From a virus (lineage: Duplodnaviria > Caudoviricetes), in IMG/VR virus record IMGVR_UViG_3300044756_000026, positions 1 to 53,671 of that record: 53,671 nucleotides of DNA; one strand, 5' to 3'. This document shows, in pieces, positions 27,913 to 53,671 of this stretch (its first letter is position 1; every line of letters starts with the position of its first letter). The translations under genes and the position numbers were made by a program. A model generated the notes under the pieces. It saw only the letters and a list, made by a program, of their open reading frames with translations. It made no database searches and was not told the origin of the DNA.

Positions 27913-27940
27913 TGCATGACACACACACGAAAGGCAGAAT

Positions 27941-28914: not shown

Positions 28915-28915
28915 G

Positions 28916-38782: not shown

Positions 38783-38807
38783 AACGTCTCCTCATCTTCT
38801 AGTTCTT

Positions 38808-39350: not shown

Positions 39351-39391
39351 GCGATAATGTTATCACGACACGCCTCATGATTGGAGAATAA

Positions 39392-41347: not shown

Positions 41348-41382
41348 TGTGTGTCTGTGTGTGTATGTCGTCGTCATTATCA

Positions 41383-41432
41383 TTTATCATTATCACACCC
41401 GTATATATATACGGGGGTGTGATGAATGATGA
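41383..41432. repeat. AT-centred palindrome, candidate origin or terminator
   Basis: TCATTATCACACCC-GTATAT|ATATAC-GGGGGTGTGATGAATGA. Confidence 0.5.
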
Positions 41433-41471
41433 AATTCTAACAGACAACCTCCACACCGGAAGGGTGATAAG

Positions 41472-41693
41472 GTGATCAAAGTTTATACCAAACCGGAATG
41501 TGTGCAATGCAAGTGGACTAAGGTATTTCTAGAGAAGATGGGCCTCGAGTATGAAGAGCATGATGTGACGCAAGATGAAGAGGCCGCAAAGGAGGTGAGG
41601 AGAAGAGGATTCGATACCTTACCCGTCGTCGTTACCGCGCAAGATGTTTGGGCCGGCTTCAAGATTGACAAATTAAAAGACTTGAAGCGTTGA
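41472..41693 (+). CDS. nrdH: NrdH-like glutaredoxin
   Basis: VYTKP.CVQC..TK...PVV...W.GF..DK. Confidence 0.92.
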   Translation: MIKVYTKPECVQCKWTKVFLEKMGLEYEEHDVTQDEEAAKEVRRRGFDTLPVVVTAQDVWAGFKIDKLKDLKR

Positions 41694-41743
41694 GCGCCGT
41701 CGTGATACGATTGTGCTGTACGTCACAACGAAAGGAAGAATCT

Positions 41744-41884
41744 ATGCCAACTCTTACGCTCAAGGAGATCGCCGAGAATCTCGGTTACAAGGACATGACG
41801 TCGTTCTCCCGAGAGTGGAAGACTCTGTCGCCTGAAGAGAAGGCGCAGTTCCGTCAAGTATGTGGAGAACGCAATGGCTCTTAA
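41744..41884 (+). CDS. small hypothetical protein
   Basis: TACGAT -10 at 41706 and GAAAGGA RBS. Confidence 0.55.
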   Translation: MPTLTLKEIAENLGYKDMTSFSREWKTLSPEEKAQFRQVCGERNGS

Positions 41885-42188
41885 ACATATGCCGCAGCTA
41901 CCACGCAAGCGGATACTCGGCGTATCATTCGATCAAGAACGAGTGACTGCCGGATCAATCGAGGTCGGCGACCACATCATGATGCCCGACCGCCCGACGA
42001 TGGTGATGCGTGTGGAAGATGTCATCCAGTACAAGAACACCGTTACCATTCGCGGCGTGCTGACTAACGGCTCGAAGCAGATGTTCAATCGTTTCCGCAT
42101 CGGACCAGTGCATCGTGTGGTGTGGCACAATCCAGAGTTCAAGGCAAAGCTTGATGCCATTATTGACGCAGGAGTAAAGGGTGAGTAA
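41874..42188 (+). CDS. hypothetical protein
   Basis: GGAGA RBS; operon packing. Confidence 0.55.
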   Translation: MALKHMPQLPRKRILGVSFDQERVTAGSIEVGDHIMMPDRPTMVMRVEDVIQYKNTVTIRGVLTNGSKQMFNRFRIGPVHRVVWHNPEFKAKLDAIIDAGVKGE

Positions 42189-42408
42189 TTTCGGAGTGCG
42201 CTGCGACGGGCGACACATCAAGACGAAGAAGGAACTGAGGGATCTGGTGAAAGCGGGCGTCGAGCTGTTCGCCTACGATACTTCGTCCTTTAGTAACCGC
42301 GGCGTCGTACGTGTCACGGAACTGTTGCCCGAAGACGTGATCGTCGGACCGGATCCGGATACGAAGCGATCGTGGTTCGCTAACTACAAGGACGGGAAAA
42401 TCGTATGA
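42181..42408 (+). CDS. hypothetical protein
   Basis: AGGAG RBS; KTKKELR...VGPDP...R.W.A motif. Confidence 0.6.
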   Translation: MSNFGVRCDGRHIKTKKELRDLVKAGVELFAYDTSSFSNRGVVRVTELLPEDVIVGPDPDTKRSWFANYKDGKIV

Positions 42409-42689
42409 ACTGCCCAGCGTGTGGGTTCGCTAACGATGCTTACGTGGAATACAAACAGGAGGGACCGGACGTTGACTCACGCGAACCTAGTAGTGGCGAC
42501 GCTCTCCTCTGCTATTCTTGTGCAGCAGTTCTTACGCTCAATGAGGAAGGCGAACTCGTGTACCCAACGCAGGAACAACGGATGCGATGGGTCCGAGAAC
42601 CTCTTGTCCAACAAGGAATCATCCAGCTGATGCTGCACATGACGATACATGAGCTGATCGCTGAGCAGGAAAGAACCCCGGGGGGGTAA
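42405..42689 (+). CDS. hypothetical Zn-ribbon protein
   Basis: CPACG...C..C; ATGA overlap. Confidence 0.55.
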   Translation: MNCPACGFANDAYVEYKQEGPDVDSREPSSGDALLCYSCAAVLTLNEEGELVYPTQEQRMRWVREPLVQQGIIQLMLHMTIHELIAEQERTPGG

Positions 42690-42748
42690 TTTAGGCTTTA
42701 CGTCCAAAAAAATCACAGAGAATTCTGAGACTTTGAAAGAAGAATAAT

Positions 42749-42997
42749 ATGCCTTTGAACGAGACCCAAGACGCGGTTATGTGCGAAGTCAAGGACGGCT
42801 ACCTGATCAATGTTCTCGCAATCCACGCAATTACACCTGACGATGAATTTATGGAGCCAAGTTCACGAATTTACCTTTCAAGTGGTTCAAAAATCTCTAT
42901 TGAAGGCATAACGCCACACCAGATTGTGGATCAGGTGATGACAACACTCCGCGAGGCACAAGCGATGATTCTGGGGAGGATTGAGTCTAGTGACTGA
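42749..42997 (+). CDS. hypothetical protein
   Basis: ORF with GAAAG upstream. Confidence 0.5.
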   Translation: MPLNETQDAVMCEVKDGYLINVLAIHAITPDDEFMEPSSRIYLSSGSKISIEGITPHQIVDQVMTTLREAQAMILGRIESSD

Positions 42998-43919
42998 GCG
43001 GAAGTCGGTACAATTCCGTATCGACGAGTCTCTTGCCGACATTGACGCCCTGATCGACGCACAGCTGGCTCAAGGTCCGGTTGACGACTACAATGTGGAC
43101 CGATACGACCACTGCCACTGGTGTGGGTACACATGGCACGGATTGCCGATCACCGAGCACATGCGCGAGATGCAGTCGTATGGTCAGATGTACGACGGCT
43201 ACAAGTACAGCGAAGACGATAGCGCATGGATCTGTCCTGGTTCTGACTACTATGGACCAATGCACGAGTCTGGTCACTGGAATAAGGAAGCGAGGGAACG
43301 TTGGGCTAATCGCCTCGCTGACTTTCCAGTCCCCCAAGACCGAGTCTTGTCAGATCAGTCTGGGTACTCACTTGCTGACCTTGAACTTCTTCGGAGTCGT
43401 GACCGATCGGTCGGGCTTTACCAACAGCGACGGACTGATTACAGCTACACTCGAACTCGTCGCACCCTCAAACGTTATCGCTTTGACCCCCCTGATTGGC
43501 GATCCTGGCGAATAAGCATGGAGCACGATCAGGACTTTGACGAGATCATGGGCTTCGGTAGTCCGTATCGTCAACTGCGGTCGAGTCGCACGTACTTGGA
43601 GATTGATTACGAGGGACGCTTGCAAGTGACTCATGGAATGCGCATTCCTGAGCAATTCATTTCAGAATGGACGTTGACAGGAACGCATCAAGATCAGGTG
43701 CTCTGGGCTCGGATGCGCACATGGAAAGTAGAGATCAAGCAAATCGTTCTGTACGCTCATACTCCGGAGCATCGTCTGGAGGAGCCGTCTCGACATGATG
43801 AGTCGCGTCGAGACAACGAACCACAGTATATTGATGTGGACACATATGACAATCCACTGGAGCTTGTGTGGTGGAACGATTTCTGGAAGGATTTGGGTGA
43901 TGCGCCGGAACAATCATGA
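42981..43919 (+). CDS. hypothetical protein
   Basis: 312 aa; GGAGG RBS; ID.LID.QL...C..CG..WHGLP...CPGS. Confidence 0.65.
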   Translation: MSLVTERKSVQFRIDESLADIDALIDAQLAQGPVDDYNVDRYDHCHWCGYTWHGLPITEHMREMQSYGQMYDGYKYSEDDSAWICPGSDYYGPMHESGHWNKEARERWANRLADFPVPQDRVLSDQSGYSLADLELLRSRDRSVGLYQQRRTDYSYTRTRRTLKRYRFDPPDWRSWRISMEHDQDFDEIMGFGSPYRQLRSSRTYLEIDYEGRLQVTHGMRIPEQFISEWTLTGTHQDQVLWARMRTWKVEIKQIVLYAHTPEHRLEEPSRHDESRRDNEPQYIDVDTYDNPLELVWWNDFWKDLGDAPEQS

Positions 43920-44355
43920 GATAAGGGACGCTGAGAACGACATTCTTGGGTATACGCCTTCACGATTCGTCACGGCGTATCACGAGTTAATTTCTTCTTG
44001 CATGCTAATGGCGTCCAGTGGCGACCAGGAACCCAATACGCGCATCGCAACGCCAAAACGCAAATACAGCACACACACAGGAGGGCTCAGGGACGAAGCT
44101 TCAATGAGATTTAAAGCATGGGTCGATAGAGAGCTACGTGTACTAGCTCGAGACATGGAAGCATTCATACATGCGCGCGGCGCCGAACGTGAGTACATGA
44201 GAGCACGCGCTGATTTGAAGTGCAAAGGCTGCGGAAAGTATGTGCAGTGGCACTGGCATTTCTGCGCCTGGTGTGGGCACGTCATGGTGCATACCATGGA
44301 CACGCTCCGGACCAGGAACGAAGAACGATTGGGAATCATATCGAACGGTGAGTGA
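43900..44355 (+). CDS. Zn-ribbon protein
   Basis: C-terminal C..CGK....W.FC.WCG. Confidence 0.6.
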   Translation: MRRNNHEIRDAENDILGYTPSRFVTAYHELISSCMLMASSGDQEPNTRIATPKRKYSTHTGGLRDEASMRFKAWVDRELRVLARDMEAFIHARGAEREYMRARADLKCKGCGKYVQWHWHFCAWCGHVMVHTMDTLRTRNEERLGIISNGE

Positions 44356-44449
44356 GATGTGGACTGGTTACAAGGTCTGGCATTGATCGCAACATTAGTC
44401 GGAACCTTTGAGTTCGGAAGAGTCAGAGGATGGGAGAAAGGATATAGTT

Positions 44450-44575
44450 ATGCCTGGAAAGAAATATCGCTCTATCAAGAAACCAAAGATGTACGAGGGC
44501 CTAAGGAAGAAGGGGTTTAGCAAGTCGTCAGCGGCAAAGATCAGCAATGCTAAGTCAAAGAAAAAGAAGAAATGA
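44450..44575 (+). CDS. 41-aa highly basic protein (not in ORF track)
   Basis: GAAAGGA RBS; MPGKKYRSIKKPKMYEGLRKKGFSKSSAAKISNAKSKKKKK. Confidence 0.65.
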   Translation: MPGKKYRSIKKPKMYEGLRKKGFSKSSAAKISNAKSKKKKK

Positions 44576-44667
44576 CCACGTTCTGGGCATCGGTGATCGT
44601 CAGTATCTTGGCAGGTGGTACTACCGGATTCATAGTCACATGGCTTTCCATCCGGTTCCGCCGCTGA
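44572..44667 (+). CDS. 31-aa single-TM peptide (not in ORF track)
   Basis: ATGA overlap; MTTFWASVIVSILAGGTTGFIVTWLSIRFRR. Confidence 0.45.
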   Translation: MTTFWASVIVSILAGGTTGFIVTWLSIRFRR

Positions 44668-44930
44668 ACTTTCCGCCTCGTCCGTTCGAGGCGTTCACAC
44701 AGTGCCCGCGTTGCGAGTACATGGGTTACGCTTTCCTCAGACCCCTGTTGCGTGTGGTTCACCATGGGCCGATCAAGCGGTTGGACAACGGTGACGGTAC
44801 GACGACTGAAATCCACGCGTTCGGAGATACGTGGGATTCATATCATGAAGTCGATCCAGCAGTAGAGAAGCCGAGCACGATAGAACGTCAATGTCAAGTA
44901 TGCCACTATAGATGGGAACAATTACCATGA
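44640..44930 (+). CDS. Zn-ribbon hypothetical protein
   Basis: CPRC...RQC..C...W.Q. Confidence 0.5.
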   Translation: MAFHPVPPLNFPPRPFEAFTQCPRCEYMGYAFLRPLLRVVHHGPIKRLDNGDGTTTEIHAFGDTWDSYHEVDPAVEKPSTIERQCQVCHYRWEQLP

Positions 44931-45169
44931 CCGAGAAAGCACCTCCTGGCGGAGGTACAATAGAAGCTAAACTCTGGTTCAAAACTGAATGTGGGCAATG
45001 CTCGGGTCAACAGGAGGATGGATCAGTAGCTTTACATTGGGATGAAGATTCGTCGTATGCTGAGGATTTTGCGGTGGCTCATGTTAACGCTAATGCTGAT
45101 CACGTGGTGACTATCACTACTCAGGTACTGATTCTTCCACCGGAGGCTCGTCAGTCGTCTCTTGATTGA
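44927..45169 (+). CDS. hypothetical protein
   Basis: C..C...H....H; ATGA overlap. Confidence 0.5.
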   Translation: MTEKAPPGGGTIEAKLWFKTECGQCSGQQEDGSVALHWDEDSSYAEDFAVAHVNANADHVVTITTQVLILPPEARQSSLD

Positions 45170-45341
45170 CGAATGGTTCAGCATCGGGTTCGCCGTGTGT
45201 TCGGCGGTATTCTACGCAGCTTGGGCAAAAGCAATTTTCGTGGTAATGCGTCATTTCTTCGGACATTGCAGCTTCCTTTCGTGAGAACCATTACGATACG
45301 ATTGTAACGCACGCATTACACACGACGAATGGATCTTACAA

Positions 45342-45608
45342 ATGAAATGTCCAGAATGTGATAGCGACAATGTTCAGCTAACGCAATTCATCGAGGACCC
45401 GCCAATTGATATTCCATGTAAAACAGAAGGGTATGCGGATGAAGTTCATTGTCTCGATTGCATGGGAGTGTTCGTACCTGACAAACTGAAGAAAGTTTGG
45501 ATCAAATCGCATCTCGCTGATGTACCAATCGAAGGCAACATCGACGATGCGGATACGTTGCGACAACTCCTAGAAAAGAAACTGGAATCTTTGGACGATG
45601 ACGATTGA
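45342..45608 (+). CDS. Zn-ribbon hypothetical protein
   Basis: CPECDS...CLDC; TACGAT promoter-like element near 45297. Confidence 0.55.
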   Translation: MKCPECDSDNVQLTQFIEDPPIDIPCKTEGYADEVHCLDCMGVFVPDKLKKVWIKSHLADVPIEGNIDDADTLRQLLEKKLESLDDDD

Positions 45609-45924
45609 CAAACGCCTGCGTCGGCAACAACGCAAGGCGCAGAAAACGGAAGACAACTCGTGGGGCGGGTACGCGGGTCGTTCGTTAGGTGAGATCATCG
45701 CCGAGGAAGCGGACAAGCGATTCGTCAAACGCAAAGGCGGAGACATGTCCGTCGAGAACGAATGGGAAATGCGAGGCGTGTTGCTCGCACTATCCATTCT
45801 GCGTGGGTCGTCGGTCAATGAAGAAATAAGGCGAATGAAAGGAAGAGTAAAGCATGGCGAAGCCGAAGTCGATACAAGCAGAGGCACGCAAGTACGGAAA
45901 GTCCGTCGCCGCGTACCTGAATGA
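45598..45924 (+). CDS. hypothetical protein
   Basis: Overlaps the previous stop. Confidence 0.5.
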   Translation: MTIDKRLRRQQRKAQKTEDNSWGGYAGRSLGEIIAEEADKRFVKRKGGDMSVENEWEMRGVLLALSILRGSSVNEEIRRMKGRVKHGEAEVDTSRGTQVRKVRRRVPE

Positions 45925-46141
45925 CAAGACGAAGAAAGGAGCATTCAATGCTGGTGTGGTGTGGAACGATGACGACGTAGCCACTATCGTTCAGATGATT
46001 GAGAACGACAGCACCACCTTCGATATGGCGATCACGCTCGGTCGTACGTACTACGGCGCGCTCAACGCACGCGCACACATCGGTTTTGCAATGCGGCACT
46101 CAGACGTGATCTGGGGCACCATGACGAAAGGCAAGAAGTGA
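45854..46141 (+). CDS. putative Myb/HTH-like protein
   Basis: W..DD...MA..LGRT motif. Confidence 0.5.
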   Translation: MAKPKSIQAEARKYGKSVAAYLNDKTKKGAFNAGVVWNDDDVATIVQMIENDSTTFDMAITLGRTYYGALNARAHIGFAMRHSDVIWGTMTKGKK

Positions 46142-46317
46142 TACACACTGGCGATTACGTCAAGGTGAATCCAATGTCGAAGGTATACAAGGTCAAGGCA
46201 GTATACGGCGACAGTCTCCAGCTTACGATTGCACCCGACCATCCAGACGGGGCAAAGTATGACCGCAATTTCTGGACAACAAGAGATAAGGTGATTGAAG
46301 TTGAAGCAATACGTTGA
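46138..46317 (+). CDS. 59-aa hypothetical protein (not in ORF track)
   Basis: GAAAGG RBS; GTGA overlap; MIHTGDYVKV... Confidence 0.45.
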   Translation: MIHTGDYVKVNPMSKVYKVKAVYGDSLQLTIAPDHPDGAKYDRNFWTTRDKVIEVEAIR

Positions 46318-46657
46318 CGGCACCCTCGAGGGCAGCCCTGAAGAATTAGCCGCATACAAGCACATCGACGCGATGCTCGCGCGCAAGAACAAGCCGGCAC
46401 CGAAGGCAATAGAAGCGAAGAAGGCACCGGTAAAAAAAGAACGCTCGAAGAATAGAGTATCGTCGGACGCGATCCTACTCTTCATTGAAGAACGCGAGGG
46501 GGCGACTGCTGCGGATATAGCTGAACAATTCCCCGGGCTCCCCCGAAAGGCAGCGTACAACAGACTATATCAACTGAGAAAGCAAAACAAACTCTGGTTG
46601 ACGGATCGTGGTGTGTTCAAGCTCGAGCGAAACAATGCCGAAAAAGCAGCGACGTAG
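46295..46657 (+). CDS. winged-HTH DNA-binding protein
   Basis: GATAADIAEQF...YNRL..L......RGVF.L. Confidence 0.65.
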   Translation: MKLKQYVDGTLEGSPEELAAYKHIDAMLARKNKPAPKAIEAKKAPVKKERSKNRVSSDAILLFIEEREGATAADIAEQFPGLPRKAAYNRLYQLRKQNKLWLTDRGVFKLERNNAEKAAT

Positions 46658-47015
46658 TTGGACCCGTCCCGGACTGTCGGATGCTGCTGCACAACGCCGA
46701 TGGTCCGGGATACGGGCGTCTGTATTAAACCGTGACAAACACTTGTGTCAGGCGAAGTTGTGGTGTTGTACGATTAAAGCGGAGGAGGTACATCATGTCT
46801 ACGCACGTTTCCGCAACCGCGATAACGTGGATGACAGGAAGTCGAACCTCATGTCTGTGTGCAAGAACTGTCACGAGATTCTCACGACGAACGACGTTGT
46901 GGCTGAACGTGAAATGAAGAAGTGGTTGGCGCACGTGGAAAAGATGAAGTTCTCGGATGCTCCGGGAATTCTGAAGAAAGGTGAAAAGTACGATGGTCGA
47001 CATGCCGAAGGTTAA
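46635..47015 (+). CDS. HNH endonuclease (cos-packaging type)
   Basis: W..IR..VL.RD...CQ...EVHH...SNL..VC..CH. Confidence 0.85.
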   Translation: MPKKQRRSWTRPGLSDAAAQRRWSGIRASVLNRDKHLCQAKLWCCTIKAEEVHHVYARFRNRDNVDDRKSNLMSVCKNCHEILTTNDVVAEREMKKWLAHVEKMKFSDAPGILKKGEKYDGRHAEG

Positions 47016-47169
47016 GAAGCTCACTGCTGACATTGAAGCCGTGTTGGTGGCACATCAGCACACGCGGCAGATCTATCCAGGACGTTGTACCTGTGATGCG
47101 CTCAAGCCGCGCAACCCGGAGCAGTGGCGTCGGCATCTCGCCATTCAACTCAGGAAAGTGATGACGTGA
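46993..47169 (+). CDS. hypothetical protein
   Basis: H....CTC...HLA..L motif. Confidence 0.5.
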   Translation: MVDMPKVKKLTADIEAVLVAHQHTRQIYPGRCTCDALKPRNPEQWRRHLAIQLRKVMT

Positions 47170-47294
47170 TGAGATGTTGGCACACTCCGTTCTGGAACTG
47201 TTCTTAGTATTCGACTGCGGTGTAGGTGTGGGAGTGTTCGTTGTCTGGCTCGGATTCTGGTGGGGGAAGCGGCGAAAGTGAGGACGCGTCCGTA

Positions 47295-47340
47295 CACCAT
47301 GGGCTAAACCCAGGACGTGTACTTCTCACCATAGGCCGAT
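47295..47340 (+). repeat. bipartite CACCAYRGGCYRA element, copy 1
   Basis: Units at 47295 and 47327, 32 bp apart; same arrangement at 51917/51949. Confidence 0.65.
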
Positions 47341-47445
47341 GTGGTTCCAAAATGCGGGTATCAGCAGCGCACACGATGGCCAGCACGGCCTATACGGCCA
47401 CATACATCATATATATGCGCGATGCGCGCGCGATCCTGAATGGTG

Positions 47446-47499
47446 GCTTAAAGTGGTAGCGGCATTGGGATGACGTGACTCAGCTTAATGACATATAAT
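47446..47499 (+). promoter_or_regulatory. repeated early-type promoter (AAAGTGGT...GACATATAAT)
   Basis: TATAAT at 47494; related copies at 48982, 49645, 50644, 51234, 52100. Confidence 0.75.
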
Positions 47500-47505
47500 C
47501 GCGTT

Positions 47506-47850
47506 ATGACGAACACACGAACCGAACGCACGAAATACCTGGATCCCATCATCACGGAGTTCAGCTTGTATGACATGTCAGCCGCCGATGAATCTGACCC
47601 CGATCCAATCTACGTCGATGCGCGCAATGCCTCCGACCACATCGGCGGAATGATCTCTTTGCGTAATCACATCGCGTACAACGAACTCCGCCTGATCGAA
47701 CAAAAGGAATGGGGTTCGCACGACGAGGCACGTTACGAATTGTGGAACGTGGGTGTGCCCGTTGCTATCCTGTGCCTCGCAACGATGCCGCGCGACGTGT
47801 ACGAAGAAGCCAACGCCCCCGAACAGTTCGCCGACCTCGAAGGAGAATAA
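47506..47850 (+). CDS. hypothetical protein, probably leaderless
   Basis: ATG 7 nt after TATAAT; ESDPDP motif shared with 50656. Confidence 0.6.
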   Translation: MTNTRTERTKYLDPIITEFSLYDMSAADESDPDPIYVDARNASDHIGGMISLRNHIAYNELRLIEQKEWGSHDEARYELWNVGVPVAILCLATMPRDVYEEANAPEQFADLEGE

Positions 47851-47854
47851 CGAC

Positions 47855-48040
47855 ATGGACATGGTACGCATCGAAGGCAAGCAGCTCGAGAACCTGATCG
47901 ACACGTTGACGCGATACAAGGAGGCAACGGGTCGTGATCCGTATCTCCTCCGTATCGCATGGCAAGGCGAATCCGTGTTGATGAAGGTCAACGAAGGATT
48001 GTGGTCCGCTCCGATGGGAACGAAACAGGAGGCATATTAA
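47855..48040 (+). CDS. hypothetical protein
   Basis: AAGGAG RBS; KVNE..WS.P.G motif. Confidence 0.6.
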   Translation: MDMVRIEGKQLENLIDTLTRYKEATGRDPYLLRIAWQGESVLMKVNEGLWSAPMGTKQEAY

Positions 48041-48042
48041 TC

Positions 48043-48204
48043 ATGGGATATTACGAACCCGATGAGGTTGACGAATGTCCGTGCGCGAACGATGAGCCGT
48101 GTTGGGCACATCCCGATCTCGAACGATGGGCAGCTCTGTTCCAAGAAGTCCCGAACGATTACGACGAGGAATCAAGATTCATCAGAGAAGAGGCGATGAC
48201 GTGA
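48043..48204 (+). CDS. small acidic protein
   Basis: AGGAGG RBS. Confidence 0.5.
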   Translation: MGYYEPDEVDECPCANDEPCWAHPDLERWAALFQEVPNDYDEESRFIREEAMT

Positions 48205-48647
48205 ACACGACGCGGAGATGTACGCAATGCGGAGAGTTGTGTGAGCTGCTCGATGATGCGAGGATGTGGACCGAACTGTTATCCAATTGTCACACCGCTC
48301 CCGTCGTGTGGGATAGACCGCATGTGACAGGCGATCACTTAGCCGCCATCAACATGATCGCCATTCTCCAACCGTTGTGCGCACAGTTCTCGCGCGATCA
48401 CGGAAACGTTCCGTTGAAATACAATCCGTATTTCTCGATGATGGAAGGATTGGAAGAGAAACTGCCTGATGAGGCAAAGAGTTACCACTGCAAGGTACAC
48501 GGGTGGAACGCGATATTGACCACGAAGCGGAACAAGGACACCATTCCGTATTCGGAAGGTGACGTCGAATGCGCGGCGTGCCTCGAGCAAGATGAGACCG
48601 CACATGATACCTGTGTGTGGGGACAGGAGATTGACGACAAATCATGA
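48201..48647 (+). CDS. Cys-rich hypothetical protein
   Basis: GTGA overlap; several CxxC / CxxH motifs. Confidence 0.5.
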   Translation: MNTTRRCTQCGELCELLDDARMWTELLSNCHTAPVVWDRPHVTGDHLAAINMIAILQPLCAQFSRDHGNVPLKYNPYFSMMEGLEEKLPDEAKSYHCKVHGWNAILTTKRNKDTIPYSEGDVECAACLEQDETAHDTCVWGQEIDDKS

Positions 48648-48940
48648 ACGACCGCGAAATGCTCTCAACCAAGATGCGGCGTACCACGTCGTGGAAACAC
48701 ATCGCAGCCCGTGATGCAACGATTCCCGACATGCCGCACGTCGGCTCCATGTTGTTCACGCGTACGTGGTACAACGAGAGGGATGCGCGTGTGATCGTGG
48801 GTGAGTTCGACCAAGACAAAGGATTCTTTGCAGCTCGCATGTATCACGCGGAAAAGGGACTGTCGTACGGCGTACGTGATCAGGAAGTAGCCGGCGCGTA
48901 CGTCATGTCGCAGGTCCTCGAGTGGATAGGTGAATCCTAA
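48644..48940 (+). CDS. hypothetical protein
   Basis: AGGAG RBS; ATGA overlap. Confidence 0.55.
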   Translation: MNDREMLSTKMRRTTSWKHIAARDATIPDMPHVGSMLFTRTWYNERDARVIVGEFDQDKGFFAARMYHAEKGLSYGVRDQEVAGAYVMSQVLEWIGES

Positions 48941-48966
48941 ACCAGTTCCGTACGAGGTTGAACAAT

Positions 48967-49013
48967 CTGAGCTGTTTACGATATAATGACGCGAACGCAC
49001 ACACACGAAAGGA
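48967..49013 (+). promoter_or_regulatory. repeated promoter and leader
   Basis: CTGAGC...GATATAATGACGCGAACGCACACACACGAAAGGA, nearly identical to 49630-49676. Confidence 0.75.
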
Positions 49014-49019
49014 ACGCAC

Positions 49020-49286
49020 ATGCCAAGAACCCAACGCGTTGATGACGTACGCGACGAGGACGGATACATCATACAGGGAGGATATTCGTTTTGGGAATGT
49101 GAACGATGCGGAGAAGAGGTACGCCGCTATCGTGGACAAGGCGATGTGAGCTGTCACAAATGCGATGCGCAATACAACGCGTCGGGTCAACGGTTGCGTG
49201 ACAACTGGAGAGACAACCGATCGAACTACGATGACGACGTCTCCGACATGGACGGATACGAAGATTCACTGGCAGGAGATTACTGA
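49020..49286 (+). CDS. Zn-ribbon protein
   Basis: C..CG...C..C.A.YN..GQ.LR. Confidence 0.65.
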   Translation: MPRTQRVDDVRDEDGYIIQGGYSFWECERCGEEVRRYRGQGDVSCHKCDAQYNASGQRLRDNWRDNRSNYDDDVSDMDGYEDSLAGDY

Positions 49287-49288
49287 TC

Positions 49289-49465
49289 ATGAGCTACTGT
49301 GAAGATTACCCGTGTTGTGGGCACACGCCACAGGATCCGTGTGAACGGCAATGGTACGATGAGCCGGACGCGTTCGACACGACGAAGAATCCGCATGCTC
49401 TGTGCGATCATGAAAACGGAGAGTGCGACGTGGAATACTACGACGAGGATGAGGAATACGCTTGA
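49289..49465 (+). CDS. 58-aa acidic Cys-rich protein (not in ORF track)
   Basis: AGGAG RBS; MSYCEDYPCCGH... Confidence 0.6.
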   Translation: MSYCEDYPCCGHTPQDPCERQWYDEPDAFDTTKNPHALCDHENGECDVEYYDEDEEYA

Positions 49466-49682
49466 GCCTCTGGATCCGCGTGCGCATCAAAACTGTCCTG
49501 CTCGTATTAGGTTTGATCGAGGATCGGTTCGTGGATGAGAATGATTGAGATTCTAGGATTTGGAGTTTATTCGATCACGTTGGTTGCGTGTGGGATAATC
49601 ATCACTCTCCGAAACACGGGTTGATCCACTGGAGCTGAATGACATATAATGACGTGAACGCACACACACGAAAGGATGACAA

Positions 49683-49991
49683 ATGCCGAAACAAGCCGAC
49701 AACGATTTCCGTCGTTATGATCGTGCGACGATGATCCGTTCCAACGAACGCCTCGACGATACGTTACGCGCGATGATCGCTGAGCTTCTCGAAATCCTCG
49801 AACACGACAATTTGTCGCAGCTCATACAATGGTCGAGGAAAGTCTCCGCCGCGATGAAACGTGGGAACAGGCGACAATCAGCCGCGTTGCATGTGTTGTT
49901 GATCCTCGCGACACAATCCGACGAGGGAGATACCCGCAAACGAATCTCCGACGACGTGCGTGCATTCGGGCGCGCCTTGAATGTGATGTGA
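49683..49991 (+). CDS. hypothetical protein
   Basis: Own promoter (TATAAT 49645) and GAAAGGA RBS. Confidence 0.65.
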   Translation: MPKQADNDFRRYDRATMIRSNERLDDTLRAMIAELLEILEHDNLSQLIQWSRKVSAAMKRGNRRQSAALHVLLILATQSDEGDTRKRISDDVRAFGRALNVM

Positions 49992-50087
49992 GCTGATGTT
50001 ACACGAGATCTTCCACATGTGTATGTGTATGGGATTCGGCATGTGTGTCGAATGTGCAGGAAAACAAATTATCAGGAAGGTAAAGGA

Positions 50088-50297
50088 ATGCAATTCACGC
50101 GTACGAGCCAACTGACTGGTGTGGAGCACACGATGGAGGTGAACTGCACACAGGAACAATGGAATGAATATCTGGGTGGGCATAAGCTGATCCAGAACAT
50201 CATGCCCGACGTGCCTGCCGAACAACGAGAATTCCTCATGACAGGCATCACGCCTGATGAATGGGATACGTACGTGGGTGATGGCGATGAGGATTAG
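50088..50297 (+). CDS. hypothetical protein
   Basis: LIQN..P.....REFLMTGITP.EW motif. Confidence 0.65.
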   Translation: MQFTRTSQLTGVEHTMEVNCTQEQWNEYLGGHKLIQNIMPDVPAEQREFLMTGITPDEWDTYVGDGDED

Positions 50298-50469
50298 AGT
50301 TCAATTCACGGTTGAGGTTGATCCTGATTTGTACATCGAGAAGTTCTTGTTGCCCGATGATGTGCGTGCCGACGTACGGCTCCACGTGAACAATCAAGCC
50401 ATCGACCATGTCATGTACAGCTGTCACGACAATGGCGTGCCAATCCAATTGATCTCACACAATTGTTGA
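50281..50469 (+). CDS. hypothetical protein
   Basis: Overlapping start; VEVDP motif. Confidence 0.45.
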   Translation: MAMRIRVQFTVEVDPDLYIEKFLLPDDVRADVRLHVNNQAIDHVMYSCHDNGVPIQLISHNC

Positions 50470-50655
50470 CGTCATCCCTAGGCGACCATGCATATGCGAC
50501 GACACGATGACACACGCAAACGTCACTGGTCGCCTAGGGACGCACACACACGATCCGACGCACGTCTTGGTTGCACGTGTCGCGCGACGTGCGCATCCGA
50601 AAGTGGTAGCGGCATCTGGTTGTATATTGTGAGCCGCTTGACATATAATACGTGT

Positions 50656-50934
50656 ATGACGAACACATACGCAGCCGACTTTTATTCGTACGCGCAATCC
50701 GAGGAATCCGATCCGGATCCTGTGCATCACGTGCAAGCCGATACCGTCGGTGAGCTCTTGTTCCTGATGAACGAACTCCTCGATCCGATGTTCACGAACA
50801 TCTCTTACAAATTCATCGACAACGACGACACAACCGAAAACTCATTCCGCCTACAAGCCGTGTCTCCGATTGACGAACGAACTCTCCAAATCAATGGTGT
50901 GGTCGACGTGTACGAATTGAAGGATGGAGAATGA
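50656..50934 (+). CDS. hypothetical protein, probably leaderless
   Basis: ATG 7 nt after TATAAT at 50644; MTNT start and ESDPDP motif. Confidence 0.6.
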   Translation: MTNTYAADFYSYAQSEESDPDPVHHVQADTVGELLFLMNELLDPMFTNISYKFIDNDDTTENSFRLQAVSPIDERTLQINGVVDVYELKDGE

Positions 50935-51152
50935 TGCGGGTAGCCCTTGCATTGATCGCATTGTGTTTAGCCACTGCGCCACATGCGAATGCGAAGCCAA
51001 CGATCTGTGATCAACTATCCGCGGCATCTTCTGTAGAGGATGTGTGGAACATATTCGTTGAACATGGCGCACAGAAGGTTGCGGATACAGCCCACGAATC
51101 ATGCCCCGAGCATGGCCTGAAAATCATTGCCGCATTGAAGGCATTTGAATGA
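50931..51152 (+). CDS. small secreted protein
   Basis: Signal peptide ending ANA; IC..L...CPEH. Confidence 0.6.
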   Translation: MMRVALALIALCLATAPHANAKPTICDQLSAASSVEDVWNIFVEHGAQKVADTAHESCPEHGLKIIAALKAFE

Positions 51153-51273
51153 CCCGCGGGGAGCCTGACATTTTCGATCCGCGGGCAGCCTGACATCCGA
51201 AAGAGGTTGTTGCGCATTCTGAGCCGCGTGACATATAATGACGTGTACGCACACGAACGAAAGGAATACGAAT

Positions 51274-51822
51274 ATGCTCCTGAACCAATTCCGCGAAAAG
51301 GGTTCGTTCCACCCGACGCCTCAAACGACTGAGCTGCTGCGCATGTTGGATATAAACTTCCAGCGAGCCGCACATAACAAATACGGGGAGGTCCTGTTGC
51401 ATGAGTTCGCCTACCGCAACGTACGAGACCTGATCGGCCTCTCACATTTGTATGGCGGGCAGTACCTGTCGAATGACGGGATCGACGAATTCTGCAATGA
51501 CATTGAAGCCGTGCTCTTCCTTGATTTCGCAGAAGAGCTGTACGCGTGTTATTGCGACGACGAGGATATCAAGGATCCGGAGAGCGTCGGGTATCGTGAA
51601 TTCTCCACGAACGTTGATGTGGCACAAGCCACGTTGAAGAACCTGCGGGAGCTTGACATCGACGTGCTGAAGCTGTGTGCCGACATACGCCCGTTGTATT
51701 TCGACAGCCTGTTCGATGACAACATATCGGGGCAGACCTACACATTCGACGGAGAGACCGACGCCATCGACTTGATCGAAGCCATCGTCAACAAAATCAT
51801 CGCACGCCTGCAGACAGCCTGA
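51274..51822 (+). CDS. acidic hypothetical protein
   Basis: Own promoter (TATAAT 51234) and GAAAGGA RBS. Confidence 0.65.
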   Translation: MLLNQFREKGSFHPTPQTTELLRMLDINFQRAAHNKYGEVLLHEFAYRNVRDLIGLSHLYGGQYLSNDGIDEFCNDIEAVLFLDFAEELYACYCDDEDIKDPESVGYREFSTNVDVAQATLKNLRELDIDVLKLCADIRPLYFDSLFDDNISGQTYTFDGETDAIDLIEAIVNKIIARLQTA

Positions 51823-51916
51823 CACCACACACCACCGCGCGGGTAGCTCCGTGCGTGTGGGTTAGGTTGGGCGGCTCCGCGGCGGCTCACCGCACCAGAC
51901 CCAGGAGCGGTCACCA

Positions 51917-51962
51917 CACCACGGGCCAAACCCCAGACGGACTCACCACACCATGGGCCGAT
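51917..51962 (+). repeat. bipartite CACCAYRGGCYRA element, copy 2
   Basis: Units at 51917 and 51949. Confidence 0.65.
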
Positions 51963-52159
51963 CCAACAACACCAACACGTGCGGGAGCCCTGCGCGGCAG
52001 CCCTGTGCGGAGCCCCTGCGGCAAGGCCTGGGGTGGCTTGTGTGCGGCGTTCAGCGGGAGCGGCTTAAAGTGGTGCGTGACATGTGCGGCTGCGTACGAT
52101 ATAATAAATACATGCGCGAAACACACACAGAGATCACGCGCACACGGAAGGAAACACAC

Positions 52160-52531
52160 ATGAAGGCTCTTGTAATCGCAACGTGCGCGGTGGCCGCGTC
52201 ATTGTCGTTCGCATCGCACGCGTACGCACAGCCCGACGACGATGCCTACGAACGAGAGATGACAATCAAGCTCTCGCAAATCGCGGACGAGATCGACGAC
52301 ATCCCGACGTGCATGATGGAAGACGGCTCCGACGTGATACCCGCGCACGGTGGCCGTTGTTTGTGGATGAACGACGGGAACACGTGGTTGACATACGAGG
52401 ATCGTTCGTTCCTCATCGTGGATGATTCCGTCGTGTCGGCTCCGCGCGTCGTGTGTTCGACGTACGGCCGATGCGATTTGTACGACGACGGAGCCTTCGA
52501 ACAAGGCACGTTCGTCGGAGGGTACAACTAA
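52160..52531 (+). CDS. secreted hypothetical protein
   Basis: GGAAGGA RBS; signal peptide ending AYA; P.C..EDGS...C.W motif. Confidence 0.65.
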   Translation: MKALVIATCAVAASLSFASHAYAQPDDDAYEREMTIKLSQIADEIDDIPTCMMEDGSDVIPAHGGRCLWMNDGNTWLTYEDRSFLIVDDSVVSAPRVVCSTYGRCDLYDDGAFEQGTFVGGYN

Positions 52532-52543
52532 CACGCGGAAACG

Positions 52544-52570
52544 GAAAGGCGGGCGCAAGCCCGTTTTTTC
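52544..52570 (+). terminator. intrinsic terminator
   Basis: GCGGGC-GCAA-GCCCGT followed by a T run. Confidence 0.8.
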
Positions 52571-52628
52571 GTGCGCAACGAACCACACGCAAGCCGCGCG
52601 GGCGGTTGAACGCGAACGGAGCCAGACG

Positions 52629-52967
52629 TGTGACGTGGATCACATGCGGCCCTCGGCCAGCGGCGGCAAGGTCGGGGCTCCGCGGCGGGAGGTTTTCAGA
52701 CGGCGGGCGGTGGCCACACAGCGGCGAGCGGAGCGGCGGGGGGAGCTGCGCGGCGGCGGCGGAAAACGGCCAGAGTGAGGACGCGAGCTTCTCACCACAG
52801 GCCATTTAACGGAGGGGCGCGGATTCGGGGGGTCGAAAAAGGGGCGCGCGCGGGCGGGTGTGACGTGGGTCACAGGGCTGTGATGTGGGTCACACGCGCG
52901 GATGGAATGTGACGTGGGGCACATCGGGGGCGCATTGTGACGTGGGGCACATGTGACGTAGCACACA
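52629..52967. promoter_or_regulatory. array of six CRP-like boxes (TGTGA-N6-[T/G/A]CACA)
   Basis: Copies start at 52629, 52859, 52879, 52908, 52936, 52952. Confidence 0.6.
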
Positions 52968-53086
52968 CATGCGAATGTCGTTGTGCGCGTGCATATCATG
53001 ATATGATCGTGTCATGCAACGCACACACACACGACGCGCGCGTTGCATCGTCGTGCGCACACACGCGCGACGCGTCACGAAATGAA

Positions 53087-53485
53087 ATGACACACGAAAT
53101 GACAAACGCAAAATCGACAAACGCACGCACGACACGCACGCGCACGACGCGCAAATCGAACGTCGTCGCAACGCGTGACGCACGCGCAAACGCAATCGCG
53201 TCGCGTGTCGCGTACATCATGCGCGTTGACGCATCAACGATTGACGATGCGTTGATCGCACACGTTGACGCGCAATTGACGCAACGACGCGTTGATGCGC
53301 ACGTGATCAACGACGCGCAATTGCGCGACATGATCATTGCGTTCACGAACAACGACAACGTTCGACGCGTGTACGAAAATCACGATGCGTGTTACGCGTC
53401 GAACGCACACGACAAATCGAAAATCGCACGCGCGAAATGTCGTCGTGAACGTCGTGCGCGCATCGTGAACGACGCGACGAAATGA
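53087..53485 (+). CDS. terminal hypothetical protein lacking Gly, Pro and Trp
   Basis: TATGAT -10 at 53002; C-terminal H..C....H....AR.KCR motif; start 53087 or 53099. Confidence 0.6.
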   Translation: MTHEMTNAKSTNARTTRTRTTRKSNVVATRDARANAIASRVAYIMRVDASTIDDALIAHVDAQLTQRRVDAHVINDAQLRDMIIAFTNNDNVRRVYENHDACYASNAHDKSKIARAKCRRERRARIVNDATK

Positions 53486-53565
53486 TCGACGAATTTGTCG
53501 ACACGCGCGACGACGTGATCGACATGTTGATGCGCATACGCGACGCGCACAACGACGACGAATAA
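53482..53565 (+). CDS. 27-aa acidic peptide (not in ORF track)
   Basis: ATGA overlap; MIDEFVDTRDDVIDMLMRIRDAHNDDE. Confidence 0.4.
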   Translation: MIDEFVDTRDDVIDMLMRIRDAHNDDE

Positions 53566-53592
53566 CGTTCGCGCACAACACAATTGAATAAC

Positions 53593-53635
53593 ACGTAACG
53601 CGCATGACGAATTATGTTGTGCGCGTTACGTTTTC
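53593..53635 (+). terminator. intrinsic terminator
   Basis: ACGTAACGCGCA...TGCGCGTTACGT followed by TTT. Confidence 0.75.
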
Positions 53636-53671
53636 ATTTGTGTGTATGTCAAGACATTACGTCAATCGAAT

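What the first reader, a model, noticed from the sequence alone, without database searches (positions are those of the whole stretch)
52962..53651. Terminal ~690 bp with no GG, CC, AG or CT dinucleotide that still encodes a complete transcription unit
Seen: reading line by line I found no GG, CC, AG or CT between 52962 and 53651. G never follows a purine, on either strand. The GG-rich DNA just upstream and the rest of the genome use these dinucleotides freely. The segment still has a -10 (TATGAT 53002), a ~130-aa ORF with no Gly, Pro or Trp, a coupled 27-aa ORF and a terminator. The leader used elsewhere (CACACGAAAGGA) appears here as CACGAAATGA, so the Shine-Dalgarno GG is lost too. Inference: selection acts on the DNA, not the protein. 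One model is a first-injected or first-expressed module that must lack targets of an RG/CY-directed activity, such as host restriction, DNA ADP-ribosylation, alkylation-type chemistry or a context-specific phage base modification. The ORF would then be a candidate anti-defence gene, by analogy with site-free T5 first-step DNA. A structural role, such as Z-DNA-prone alternating purine/pyrimidine DNA at the end, is an alternative.
Basis: partly seen in the sequence, partly recalled or inferred. Interest (0 to 1): 0.9.

Follow-up and report, generated by a model that had tools for sequence, protein, structure and literature searches.

The report
Phage end gene lacking four dinucleotides
The last 690 bases of this soil phage genome carry a working small gene written entirely without the DNA steps GG, CC, AG and CT, a rule also kept by a related isolated mycobacteriophage, which suggests that something unknown reads this two-letter motif on phage DNA.

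Summary
From 52961 to 53651 there is no GG, CC, AG or CT on either strand. That gap is 692 bp; the next longest in the genome is 43 bp (P about 1e-75).

It is not an artefact:
- The isolated Mycobacterium phage JacoRen57 keeps the same four-dinucleotide ban over about 530 bp at the same place near its right end, in otherwise unalignable sequence.
- Contigs from three other soil-metagenome studies carry diverged copies that still obey the rule.

The stretch is a complete transcription unit: an extended -10 promoter, a possible leaderless mini-ORF, a 128-132-aa ORF, a possible coupled 27-aa ORF and a 17-bp-stem terminator. Natural variation falls mostly on third codon positions, so the main ORF is a real gene. 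It uses only 17 amino acids.

The constraint is purely dinucleotide. Trinucleotides fit a first-order model, palindromes are plentiful, and non-coding parts obey the rule too.

Selection on nucleic acid rather than protein is therefore supported. What reads 5'-RG-3'/5'-CY-3' is unknown. My best reading (0.35) is a target-free, first-entering early gene that evades a DNA-acting activity. Rivals are a CRISPR PAM desert, a DnaG primase-initiation desert, a modification context, DNA structure, and an RNA-level cause.

No paper describing such a unit was found. This scan had not noted it on other DNA.

The parts
52961..53651 (.). Zone with no 5'-RG-3' / 5'-CY-3' step (no AG, GG, CC or CT) on either strand
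   Evidence: Trinucleotides fit a first-order Markov model (ratios 0.88-1.19).
52999..53007 (+). Extended -10 promoter TGnTATGAT (inferred). A possible -35, TTGTGC at 52981-52986, has only a 15-nt spacer.
   Evidence: Coordinates, sequence. The simple sigma-70 scan did not call this site. It is read by eye and by analogy with the leaderless promoters of JacoRen57 and NoShow.
53014..53085 (+). Possible leaderless 23-codon mini-ORF, or the 5' leader. Its ATG lies 7 nt after the -10.
   Evidence: In metagenome contig X2 there is no substitution in 53019-53160, against 14 in 53161-53416.
53087..53485 (+). Main ORF: 132 aa from the ATG at 53087, or 128 aa from the ATG at 53099. No SD, and no Gly, Pro or Trp. 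Predicted four-helix protein with a basic C-terminal motif ...HDK-KIARAKCRRERRARI.
   Evidence: Four homologs at 83-95% identity. 21 synonymous third-position transitions in independent contigs. AF2 pLDDT 67. The motif is shared with JacoRen57 gp73 and with phrog_1342 and phrog_18656.
53482..53565 (+). Possible translationally coupled 27-aa acidic ORF (ATGA overlap)
   Evidence: It is kept in contig X2, but the X4 contig diverges after 53491, so its coding status is uncertain.
53593..53641 (+). Intrinsic terminator: 17-pair stem, 5-nt loop, T-tract
   Evidence: The zone ends about 10 nt after the T-tract.
53652..53671 (.). Last 20 nt, up to the likely physical (cos) end. Holds the first AG after the zone.
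   Evidence: The Logan contig of run X1 stops within 1 nt of the window's end.
52600..52960 (+). G-run-rich block on the top strand only, directly upstream of the zone. It holds six TGTGA-N6-TCACA (CRP-like) boxes at 52629-52967. The top strand has no CC after 52802 and only one CT after 52791.

Best explanation
This is a self-contained early transcription unit beside the right genome end. The whole unit has been purged of the two-base step 5'-RG-3' (5'-CY-3' on the other strand), from about 40 nt upstream of its -10 to about 10 nt beyond its terminator. The proposed purpose is that a DNA-acting activity which reads this step cannot cut, modify or block the unit.

The logic is that of the site-poor first-step DNA of T5 and the leading ocr region of T7. 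The gene needed first stays transcribable while the rest of the genome is still outside the cell, is only reversibly hit, or is rescued by the product. The product is a small basic helical protein of unknown function, possibly DNA-binding.

Shown:
- The ban is absolute and purely dinucleotide.
- It is maintained by selection on nucleic acid.
- It is conserved across two lineages.
- It covers a real, expressed-looking gene.
- It lies next to the genome end.

Inferred:
- The right end enters first. This rests on analogy with cos siphophages that package from the terminase end.
- The unit is expressed early.
- The reader of the motif is a host or virion-borne enzyme.
For: 1. The absence is absolute, and this is the only such region in the genome.
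2. The same forbidden set holds in JacoRen57 over 529 nt: AG 1, GG 0, CC 0, CT 0, with the other 12 dinucleotides present. It lies at the same place, 175 nt from the right end. The DNA is unalignable apart from 42 nt.
3. In both phages the zone starts shortly upstream of the promoter and stops 10-15 nt after the terminator T-tract.
4. Diverged copies in three other metagenome studies keep the rule. Only 1 of 47 listed substitutions would create a forbidden step, and that one lies in an indel-rich spot. Four unalignable loose ends (108 nt in all) are also free of the four dinucleotides. By comparison, 44% of random substitutions and 75% of transitions would keep the rule.
5. The constraint is purely dinucleotide. 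It is not palindrome avoidance: CGCG 28, GCGC 20, ACGT 9, TCGA 8.
6. Codon choice is fully bent to the rule: AAA 6 of 6, GAA 2 of 2, CAA 3 of 3, TTG 3 of 3. The expected count is 49 forbidden steps and 0 are observed. P(no G/P/W in 155 aa) is 8e-13.
7. The zone lies 20 nt from a likely physical end.
Against: - No enzyme with RG/CY specificity is identified.
- No gene is shared by the window and JacoRen57 yet missing in NoShow and Muddy.
- The rest of the genome carries about 11,700 such steps, so the model needs two-step entry, reversible damage or fast rescue. None of these is shown.
- JacoRen57 and the zone-less NoShow and Muddy were all isolated on M. smegmatis mc2 155, so the trait is not needed on that laboratory host.
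- The protein has no recognisable anti-defence fold or family.
- The top-strand-only CY-free halo in the G-rich flanks is not predicted by this model.
- Early expression and injection polarity are untested. No RNA run holding the stretch was listed.
Confidence: 0.35

Rival explanations
1. CRISPR PAM desert. RG/CY is the union of common PAMs: NGG and NAG for Cas9, AAG, AGG and GAG for type I-E, and CC for type I-F. These PAM sets are recalled, not taken from a call. The free cos end is a favoured source of spacers. Repeated escape by PAM loss would then have stripped every PAM from the terminal unit. The G-rich block behind it might act as a Chi-like stop.
For: - This is a genuine class of two-base reader.
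- The zone is terminal.
- A top-strand G-rich block with GCGGCGG and AGCGG repeats, in the orientation expected of a Chi site, follows the zone.
- Free DNA ends are described as favoured substrates for type II adaptation, in a passage of PMC13575424 that cites earlier work.
- It would explain why the trait is lineage-specific and why it is dispensable on M. smegmatis.
Against: - The flanks are full of GG. In JacoRen57 this includes the 175 nt between the zone and the end, so the end region as a whole is not PAM-free.
- A cut anywhere else still kills the genome.
- Type I-E would need only ARG and GAG removed, not every RG.
- The same paper saw no spacer enrichment at the cos end of its phage.
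- No spacer-like match to window 36000-53671 was found in 401 Mycobacteriales genomes, though only 2 candidates per genome were scored.
Confidence: 0.15
2. Primase-initiation desert. Characterised bacterial DnaG primases start primers as pppAG or pppGG on template 5'-CT(G/A) or 5'-CCC. A strand without 5'-CY-3' then offers no start site. The terminal 0.8-0.9 kb of the top strand, and both strands within the unit, would stay unprimed. One possible result is a long 3' single-stranded tail for recombination-dependent concatemer formation.
For: [quoted passage not shown] They state that synthesis starts at the middle base and that most primers in vivo begin pppAG.
- This model explains why exactly the RG/CY pair is banned.
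- It predicts the strand asymmetry seen in both phages, where the top strand is CY-free well beyond the unit.
- The phage carries recombination genes: an AAA_24 RecA-like protein, a PD-(D/E)XK nuclease and an SNF2 helicase.
Against: - The initiation specificity of actinobacterial DnaG is not known to me. The M. tuberculosis DnaG paper I read defines no trinucleotide.
- The phage has its own RepB-type primase-helicase.
- The model gives no reason for the zone to coincide with promoter and terminator, nor for the bottom strand to be a desert only inside the unit.
- The left genome end shows no mirror-image desert.
Confidence: 0.12
3. Context of the phage's own base modification. Virion DNA might carry a pyrimidine or guanine modification whose installation depends on the neighbouring base. 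The unit would then be either entirely free of modifiable sites, or entirely modifiable because every C is followed by a purine.
For: A pyrimidine-metabolism cluster sits beside PolA: a kinase, a MazG/dUTPase-like gene, a TS-like gene, a 300-aa unknown and a dCMP deaminase. The TS-like gene matches no Pfam family and no PDB sequence, only phrog_160. Phage TS homologs can make non-canonical pyrimidines (passages of PMC13326640).
Against: The same cluster is present in the zone-less NoShow and Muddy, and in Streptomyces phage KimJongPhill. No DNA glycosyltransferase or methyltransferase was seen among the window ORFs scanned (not all small ORFs were scanned). No modification data are at hand.
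Confidence: 0.1
4. DNA physical property. The ban might be a by-product of selection for a structural feature of the last-packaged, first-ejected DNA or of its promoter. Candidates are Z-DNA-prone purine/pyrimidine alternation and resistance to the B-to-A transition.
For: - 75% of steps in the zone alternate R and Y, against 53% in the genome. JacoRen57 shows 71%.
- NoShow has a 159-bp TG/CG-alternating stretch before its last gene.
- Alternating runs of 15-18 nt cluster near the promoter and leader.
Against: - An absolute ban on two step classes is not what a bulk property predicts. AA, GA, TC and TT steps, which do not alternate, are common (174 of 689).
- The boundaries follow the transcription unit.
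- The trinucleotide spectrum shows no further structure.
Confidence: 0.1
5. RNA-level cause. The transcript, and perhaps an antisense transcript, must lack AG, GG, CC and CU. This would avoid a dinucleotide-specific endoribonuclease such as a toxin or HEPN-type RNase, or avoid any SD or anti-SD-like pairing.
For: The zone matches the transcribed span. All SD-like strings are gone. Right-arm promoters and leaders share a 36-43-nt stretch in the same dialect, running up to the SD.
Against: - The banned set is closed under reverse complement. This points to double-stranded DNA, or else needs an unshown antisense RNA.
- The promoter upstream of the start site also obeys the rule.
- The predicted RNA structure is no stronger than in dinucleotide-preserving shuffles (z = -0.28).
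- No match reached any Rfam family's gathering score.
Confidence: 0.08
6. Mutational rather than selective origin. Recurrent context-specific hypermutation of this exposed segment, such as C-to-T at CY, has burnt out all targets. Alternatively, the unit grew from a short forbidden-step-free repeat.
For: The zone holds several short direct-repeat families. Short promoter cassettes in the same dialect occur elsewhere in the genome.
Against: - GC is 54%, the same as the genome, and the expected products TY and RA are not enriched.
- The polymorphisms are balanced: C>T 11, T>C 6, A>G 8, G>A 6 among listed sites.
- Neutral decay would quickly restore the steps at the divergence seen.
Confidence: 0.05
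7. Assembly artefact, chimera or synthetic spike-in.
For: The record is a metagenome assembly, and the odd stretch lies at a contig end.
Against: - A second assembly of the probable source run spans the junction in a single 38-kb contig.
- Three other studies hold diverged copies.
- The cultured phage JacoRen57 has the same feature.
- Four homologous proteins are found in other sources.
Confidence: 0.01

Closest known systems
First-step-transfer (pre-early) DNA of phage T5 and the leading ocr region of T7 (recalled knowledge; a T5 preprint was seen only in a search listing)
   Same: A short segment at the entering genome end carries the first-expressed genes. It is kept poor in sites for host DNA-directed defence so that countermeasures can be made first.
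   Different: In T5 and T7 the avoided sites are specific 4-8-bp restriction sites, and entry in stages is demonstrated. Here a whole two-base step class is banned absolutely on both strands. The ban forces a 17-amino-acid alphabet. Staged entry, early timing and the countermeasure are all unshown.
Restriction-site (palindrome) avoidance and PAM depletion in phage genomes (recalled; PMC7320823 was seen only as a search listing)
   Same: Selection removes short words that host immunity reads.
   Different: Those effects are statistical and genome-wide. This one is local and complete (0 of about 150 expected). It leaves 4-6-bp palindromes abundant.
CpG/UpA suppression in RNA viruses (PMC7029135, abstract in a search listing)
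   Same: Avoidance at the dinucleotide level, thought to evade a host sensor that reads two bases.
   Different: That case involves eukaryotic RNA viruses, genome-wide partial suppression, and CpG or UpA. Here CpG is the commonest step (127 of 689), and the ban is on RG/CY in a DNA phage.
DnaG primase initiation sites (PMC2978363, passages)
   Same: The template dinucleotides 5'-CT and 5'-CC and the primer starts pppAG and pppGG are exactly the banned pair.
   Different: No primase-site-free genome segment is described in the passages I read. Specificity in Actinobacteria is unknown.
Right-terminal unit of Mycobacterium phage JacoRen57 (MK279840, gene 73, 'hypothetical protein')
   Same: The same forbidden set, the same position, the same promoter-to-terminator extent, and a shared ARAKCRRE motif.
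   Different: The ORF is shorter (89 aa). One AG lies upstream of the proximal promoter. A G-run-rich 175-nt segment lies between the zone and the end. The feature is not annotated in the record. Two papers mention the phage, and their listed titles and abstracts say nothing of the feature (listing only).

Membership tests
T5-like first-step-transfer / pre-early module | Lies at the genome end that enters the cell first | not testable with these tools
   The unit is 20 nt from the right end, opposite the terminase genes. That this end enters first is an analogy with cos siphophages, not a result.
T5-like first-step-transfer / pre-early module | Two-step DNA entry with a pause after the first segment | not testable with these tools
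   No sequence signature for this is known to me. It needs an entry time-course.
T5-like first-step-transfer / pre-early module | Depleted in host restriction sites | tested here: not met
   4-6-bp palindromes are plentiful (CGCG 28, GCGC 20, ACGT 9, TCGA 8, CATG 7, GATC 6). What is depleted is a dinucleotide class.
Anti-CRISPR (acr) locus | Small gene with a strong early promoter, followed by an HTH aca repressor gene | tested here: not met
   A promoter and a small gene are present. No HTH family was found in the ORF (Pfam and PHROGs). The second ORF is a 27-aa acidic peptide.
Anti-CRISPR (acr) locus | Homology or fold match to a known Acr or other anti-defence protein | tested here: not met
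   No Pfam hit for the window ORF. Foldseek against PDB and BFVD gave no match at E <= 0.001. The PADLOC library and dedicated Acr libraries were not searched.
PAM-depleted protospacer region | The motif removed equals the PAM of the host's CRISPR system | not testable with these tools
   The host is unknown. No spacer-like match was found in 401 Mycobacteriales genomes (low sensitivity).
Z-DNA-forming tract | Long uninterrupted purine/pyrimidine alternation (CG or CA/TG repeats) | tested here: inconclusive
   Alternation is 75%, but the longest perfect runs in the zone are only 15-18 nt. 174 of 689 steps do not alternate.
phrog_1342 / phrog_18656 (unknown function; the N-terminal H-x2-C-x-H...ARAxCRR motif, also found on SprT-like proteases) | Significant profile match | tested here: inconclusive
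   JacoRen57 gp73 matches (E 3.6e-5 and 1.2e-4). The window ORF itself gives no PHROG hit at E <= 0.01. It shares only the ARAKCRRE core with gp73 in an alignment.
Sigma-70-type promoter plus intrinsic terminator unit | A -10 element, a start and a GC-rich hairpin with a T-tract, all on one strand | tested here: met
   TGnTATGAT at 52999-53007 (read by eye). Terminator at 53593-53631 with 17 pairs and a T-tract. Transcription itself is not shown.

The most novel reading that the evidence does not exclude
Soil actinobacteria, or these phages themselves, possess a so far undescribed DNA-directed activity whose whole recognition element is the step 5'-RG-3'/5'-CY-3'. It could be a nuclease, a base modifier or another blocker of transcription. 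A clade of phages answers it with an 'untargetable' first gene, written in a reduced 12-dinucleotide, 17-amino-acid code, whose small basic product is the antidote. Dinucleotide-desert genes would then mark both new defences and new counter-defences.
Probability: 0.3. Interest if true: 0.92.

Novelty: new variant of a known kind. Interest (0 to 1): 0.82.

Why it matters
Local, absolute exclusion of a dinucleotide class from a whole functional gene is far stronger than any motif avoidance I know of in phage genomes. The protein itself has had to give up Gly, Pro and Trp.

Such a signature must have a strong cause, and that cause reads only two bases. Finding it could reveal one of three things: a new kind of defence or DNA chemistry in Actinobacteria, a new tactic against CRISPR adaptation at injected DNA ends, or a replication trick based on primase start sites.

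The question is directly testable. JacoRen57 is a cultured phage of the non-pathogenic laboratory host M. smegmatis and shows the same feature.

The signature is also trivial to scan for, so it could serve as a sequence-only flag for first-expressed or counter-defence genes in uncultured phages.

Tried and rejected
I then ran the search for related loci with alignment A1 in metagenome contigs and viral contigs. I also ran two degenerate patterns in viral contigs and one of them in metagenome contigs. None returned a related locus. Their DNA could therefore be judged only by amino-acid make-up (no G, P or W in 569 residues) and through read laying.

2. Function of the ORF.
   - Pfam and PHROGs gave nothing for the window protein.
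   - A profile search of 1.84 billion representatives found only its own cluster (P0004) and a spurious repeat protein, P0005.
   - The AF2 model has pLDDT 67. Foldseek against PDB and BFVD gave no match at E <= 0.001.

3. Orthology with NoShow gp79. It has the same upstream box, a leaderless start and a terminator. BLASTP gave only E about 0.05, so I do not claim orthology.

4. Phyletic partner gene. I ran tblastn with 87 crude window ORFs against JacoRen57, NoShow and Muddy. No ORF hit JacoRen57 only.

5. Wider distribution. No gap longer than 50 bp was found in any of these:
   - NoShow and Muddy (whole genomes);
   - ReT1v-1 (whole genome);
   - KimJongPhill (40-82.5 kb);
   - FF47, BearBQ and SheckWes (right 4 kb each);
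   - 20 IMG/VR loci around TerL relatives, mostly left ends.
   The public collections cannot be scanned for an absence, so the true distribution is unknown.

6. blastn of the window's last 2.7 kb found only a 42-nt match to JacoRen57. blastn of the JacoRen57 zone found only JacoRen57 itself.

7. RNA. The fold is no better than shuffles. No match reached any Rfam family's gathering score. No RNA holder of the stretch was listed.

8. DarT1 as an RG-specific ADP-ribosyltransferase. The paper reports no consensus motif, so I dropped it.

9. Spacer hunt. Window 36000-53671 was searched against 401 Mycobacteriales genomes. The hits were only chance matches, mostly to the G-rich block, with no spacer-like match. 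Just 2 candidates per genome were scored. A search of 4 genomes by handle found nothing.

10. Guanine oxidation. By recalled chemistry it favours 5'-GR, not 5'-RG, and GA is common in the zone. Rejected.

11. A translation or tRNA cause. Rejected because non-coding parts obey the rule.

12. Papers. Searches listed no paper that describes a dinucleotide-free phage segment. I judged this from titles and abstracts in the listings, and read passages of one listed paper. Supplementary files were not consulted.

13. My first CRP-box pattern had the wrong spacing. It was corrected.
Full report
**Observation.** The window is a complete, linear 53,671-bp virus record. Between the AG at 52960 and the AG at 53652 there is no AG, GG, CC or CT, a gap of 692 bp. 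The next longest gaps in the genome are 43, 43 and 40 bp. Elsewhere these four dinucleotides make up 22.1% of steps, which gives about 1e-75 for 690 free steps. A 300-bp sliding count finds only this one depleted region. The other 12 dinucleotides are all used (CG 127, AC 87, GC 72 ... TA 12), and GC is 54%, as in the genome. The banned set is closed under reverse complement. On both strands, G never follows a purine and C is never followed by a pyrimidine.

**What kind of constraint.** Trinucleotide counts fit a first-order Markov model built from the dinucleotides (observed/expected 0.88-1.19). Nothing longer than a two-base step is being avoided. Palindromic 4-6-mers are abundant (CGCG 28, GCGC 20, ACGT 9, TCGA 8, CATG 7, GATC 6, ACGCGT 5), so this is not ordinary restriction-site avoidance. 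Purine/pyrimidine alternation is 75%, against 53% genome-wide. The predicted RNA folding energy equals that of dinucleotide-preserving shuffles (z = -0.28). No match reached any Rfam family's gathering score.

**Anatomy.**
- Directly upstream lies a block (52600-52960) that is rich in G-runs on the top strand only. It holds six TGTGA-N6-TCACA boxes at 52629-52967.
- The zone starts inside the last box.
- It holds TGnTATGAT at 52999-53007, read as an extended -10.
- An ATG lies 7 nt downstream. It opens a 23-codon frame at 53014-53085.
- The main ORF follows (ATG at 53087 or 53099, ending at 53485).
- A 27-codon ORF overlaps the main ORF by ATGA (53482-53565).
- A 17-pair hairpin with a T-tract lies at 53593-53641.
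- The zone ends about 10 nt after the T-tract and 20 nt before the end of the record.
- A separate assembly (Logan) of the probable source run spans the whole stretch in a 38-kb contig. It stops within one base of the window's end, which fits a physical genome end.
- The usual leader CACGAAAGGA appears as CACGAAATGA at 53076 and 53093, so there is no SD.

**It is a real gene.** The ORF has four homologs at 83-95% identity from other sources, none with Gly, Pro or Trp (569 residues). Contigs from three other soil-metagenome studies (X2, X3, X4) cover 53014-53627 at roughly 80-97% likeness. Of the 47 substitutions listed, at 38 distinct sites, 21 are synonymous third-position transitions in the frame that starts at 53099. 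That is the signature of a protein under purifying selection. The AF2 model is four helices (pLDDT 67). No family, fold or distant relative gave a function. The C-terminal ...ARAKCRRE... core is shared with JacoRen57 gp73. There it belongs to an H-x2-C-x-H...ARAxCRR motif that matches phrog_1342 and phrog_18656. The same motif heads NoShow's SprT-like protease and KimJongPhill gp98, both written in ordinary DNA.

**Selection on nucleic acid.**
- Promoter, leader, spacer and terminator all obey the rule.
- Back-translating the same protein with this genome's codon usage gives 49 +/- 5.8 forbidden steps (minimum 26 in 20,000 trials), against 0 observed.
- Lys, Glu, Gln and Leu use only AAA, GAA, CAA and TTG.
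- The chance of no G, P or W in 155 residues at genome frequencies is 8e-13.
- Among the listed natural substitutions only one (53578 A>G, in a spot crowded with indels) would create a forbidden step. By comparison, 44% of random substitutions, 75% of transitions and 83% of synonymous transitions keep the rule.
- By the tool's count, 12 further substitutions and 3 indels were not shown.
- Four loose ends of those contigs are too diverged to align (108 nt in all) and are also free of the four dinucleotides. This is hard to get by chance (0.78^104).
- The direction of the substitutions is balanced, and GC is not lowered. Burnt-out hypermutation is therefore unlikely.

**Conservation and distribution.** By TerL the phage is a distant relative of cluster-AB/Mapvirus mycobacteriophages: 68.6% to JacoRen57, 64.9% to NoShow and 63.4% to Muddy.
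- JacoRen57 was isolated on M. smegmatis. It has the same ban over 529 nt (record 51707-52235): AG 1, GG 0, CC 0, CT 0, with all other dinucleotides present. The zone covers promoter(s), gene 73 and a terminator, and ends about 15 nt after the T-tract and 175 nt from the right end. Only 42 nt align with the window.
- A scan of all ten strand-symmetric dinucleotide classes singles out only AG/CT and CC/GG, and only in these two phages.
- No zone was found in NoShow, Muddy and ReT1v-1 (whole genomes), KimJongPhill (40-82.5 kb), FF47, BearBQ and SheckWes (right 4 kb each), or 20 IMG/VR TerL loci.
- So 2 of 9 phage genomes examined have the zone (some only in part), plus the metagenome fragments.
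- No ORF of the window hits JacoRen57 but not NoShow or Muddy.

**A strand-asymmetric halo.** In both phages the top strand stays almost free of CC and CT well beyond the unit. In the window there is no CC after 52802 and one CT after 52791. In JacoRen57 there is one CC after 51480 and no CT from 51482 to 52408. The flanks, meanwhile, are packed with top-strand G-runs. About 0.8-0.9 kb of the top strand therefore lacks 5'-CY-3', and the unit in addition lacks 5'-RG-3'.

**Mechanism.** Shown: a strong, persistent, purely dinucleotide constraint on a complete gene cassette beside the genome end. Everything about the reader of the motif is inference.
- My preferred reading (0.35) is a target-free first gene. 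The cassette must remain transcribable in the face of an activity that acts at RG/CY on DNA. The promoter-to-terminator extent in both phages fits this best.
- Weak points: no such enzyme is known to me, the rest of the genome is full of sites, and first entry and early timing are unshown.
- A CRISPR PAM desert (0.15) uses a known class of two-base reader and fits the terminal position. The GG-rich flanks argue against it.
- A primase desert (0.12) is attractive because characterised DnaG primases start pppAG or pppGG on 5'-CT(G/A) or 5'-CCC (PMC2978363 passages). It also predicts the top-strand halo. Actinobacterial specificity is unknown, however, and the match with the transcription unit is left unexplained.
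- A modification-context model (0.10) rests on a divergent TS-like gene with no Pfam or PDB sequence match. That gene cluster is also present in zone-less relatives.
- DNA structure (0.10), an RNA-level cause (0.08), a mutational origin (0.05) and an artefact (0.01) follow.

**Comparison and novelty.** The nearest known logic is site-poor first-entering DNA (T5 FST, the T7 leading region; recalled), together with statistical motif avoidance. The differences are decisive: the ban is local, absolute, two bases wide and strand-symmetric, and it reshapes the protein alphabet. Six literature searches listed no paper that describes such a segment. The JacoRen57 record annotates only a 'hypothetical protein'. 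I file it as a new variant of motif avoidance with an unknown reader.

**Verdict.** The anti-defence story is plausible but unproven. Interest is high because the signal is extreme, conserved, unexplained and directly testable.

Noticed in passing
window 52600-52967: A top-strand-only G-run block. It holds 8 G-runs of 4 or more and no C-runs, 6 of the genome's 11 top-strand GCGGCGG copies, and six CRP-like TGTGA-N6-TCACA boxes at spacings of 16-29 bp (plus one 230 bp away). A near-identical box (TGTGACGCAGGTCACA) precedes NoShow's second-last gene.
   Followed up: partly
window 47484-47522, 48972-49010, 49635-49673, 50637-50673, 51224-51262, 52090-52129, 27898-27932: Right-arm promoters share a cassette, (T)GACATATAAT-GACG..ACGCACACACACGAAAG|GA. 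It is itself free of RG/CY for 34-39 nt, from just upstream of the -10 to the SD. These cassettes account for many of the next-longest gaps in the genome.
   Followed up: partly
L004 (NoShow ON108645) 4459-4618 = record 52358-52517: A 159-bp stretch with no GA or TC. It is an almost perfect TG/CG purine-pyrimidine alternation and lies directly upstream of the promoter of NoShow's last gene. This is a different compositional oddity at the same genomic position.
   Followed up: no
window 34127-34855 (-) and 34855-35757 (-): The 'thymidylate synthase' homolog matches only phrog_160. It has no Pfam family at E <= 0.001 and no PDB sequence at E <= 0.01. The neighbouring 300-aa gene (phrog_13667) also has no Pfam family or PDB sequence match. 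The cluster is conserved in JacoRen57, NoShow, Muddy and Streptomyces phage KimJongPhill.
   Followed up: partly
JacoRen57, NoShow, Muddy (L003, L004, L007) and window 53087: Many small right-arm genes of cluster-AB phages begin with the same leaderless start, ATGAC(A/G)ACGAAC (MTTN...), 6-7 nt after a -10 box.
   Followed up: no
window 28838-29244: A 406-bp stretch with no AA on the top strand. It lies in the minus-strand gene 28916-29551, which has a weak CDC45-like Pfam hit.
   Followed up: no
window 53019-53160: In metagenome contig X2 the leader and the first ~20 codons carry no substitution, against 14 in the next 256 nt. The 5' part of the unit therefore seems more constrained than the rest of the ORF.
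   Followed up: partly
window 11037-15749: The tape measure protein is 1570 aa. At about 0.15 nm per residue (a recalled rule of thumb) the tail would be about 235 nm, or about 690 bp of B-DNA, the same length as the zone. This is probably a coincidence.
   Followed up: no
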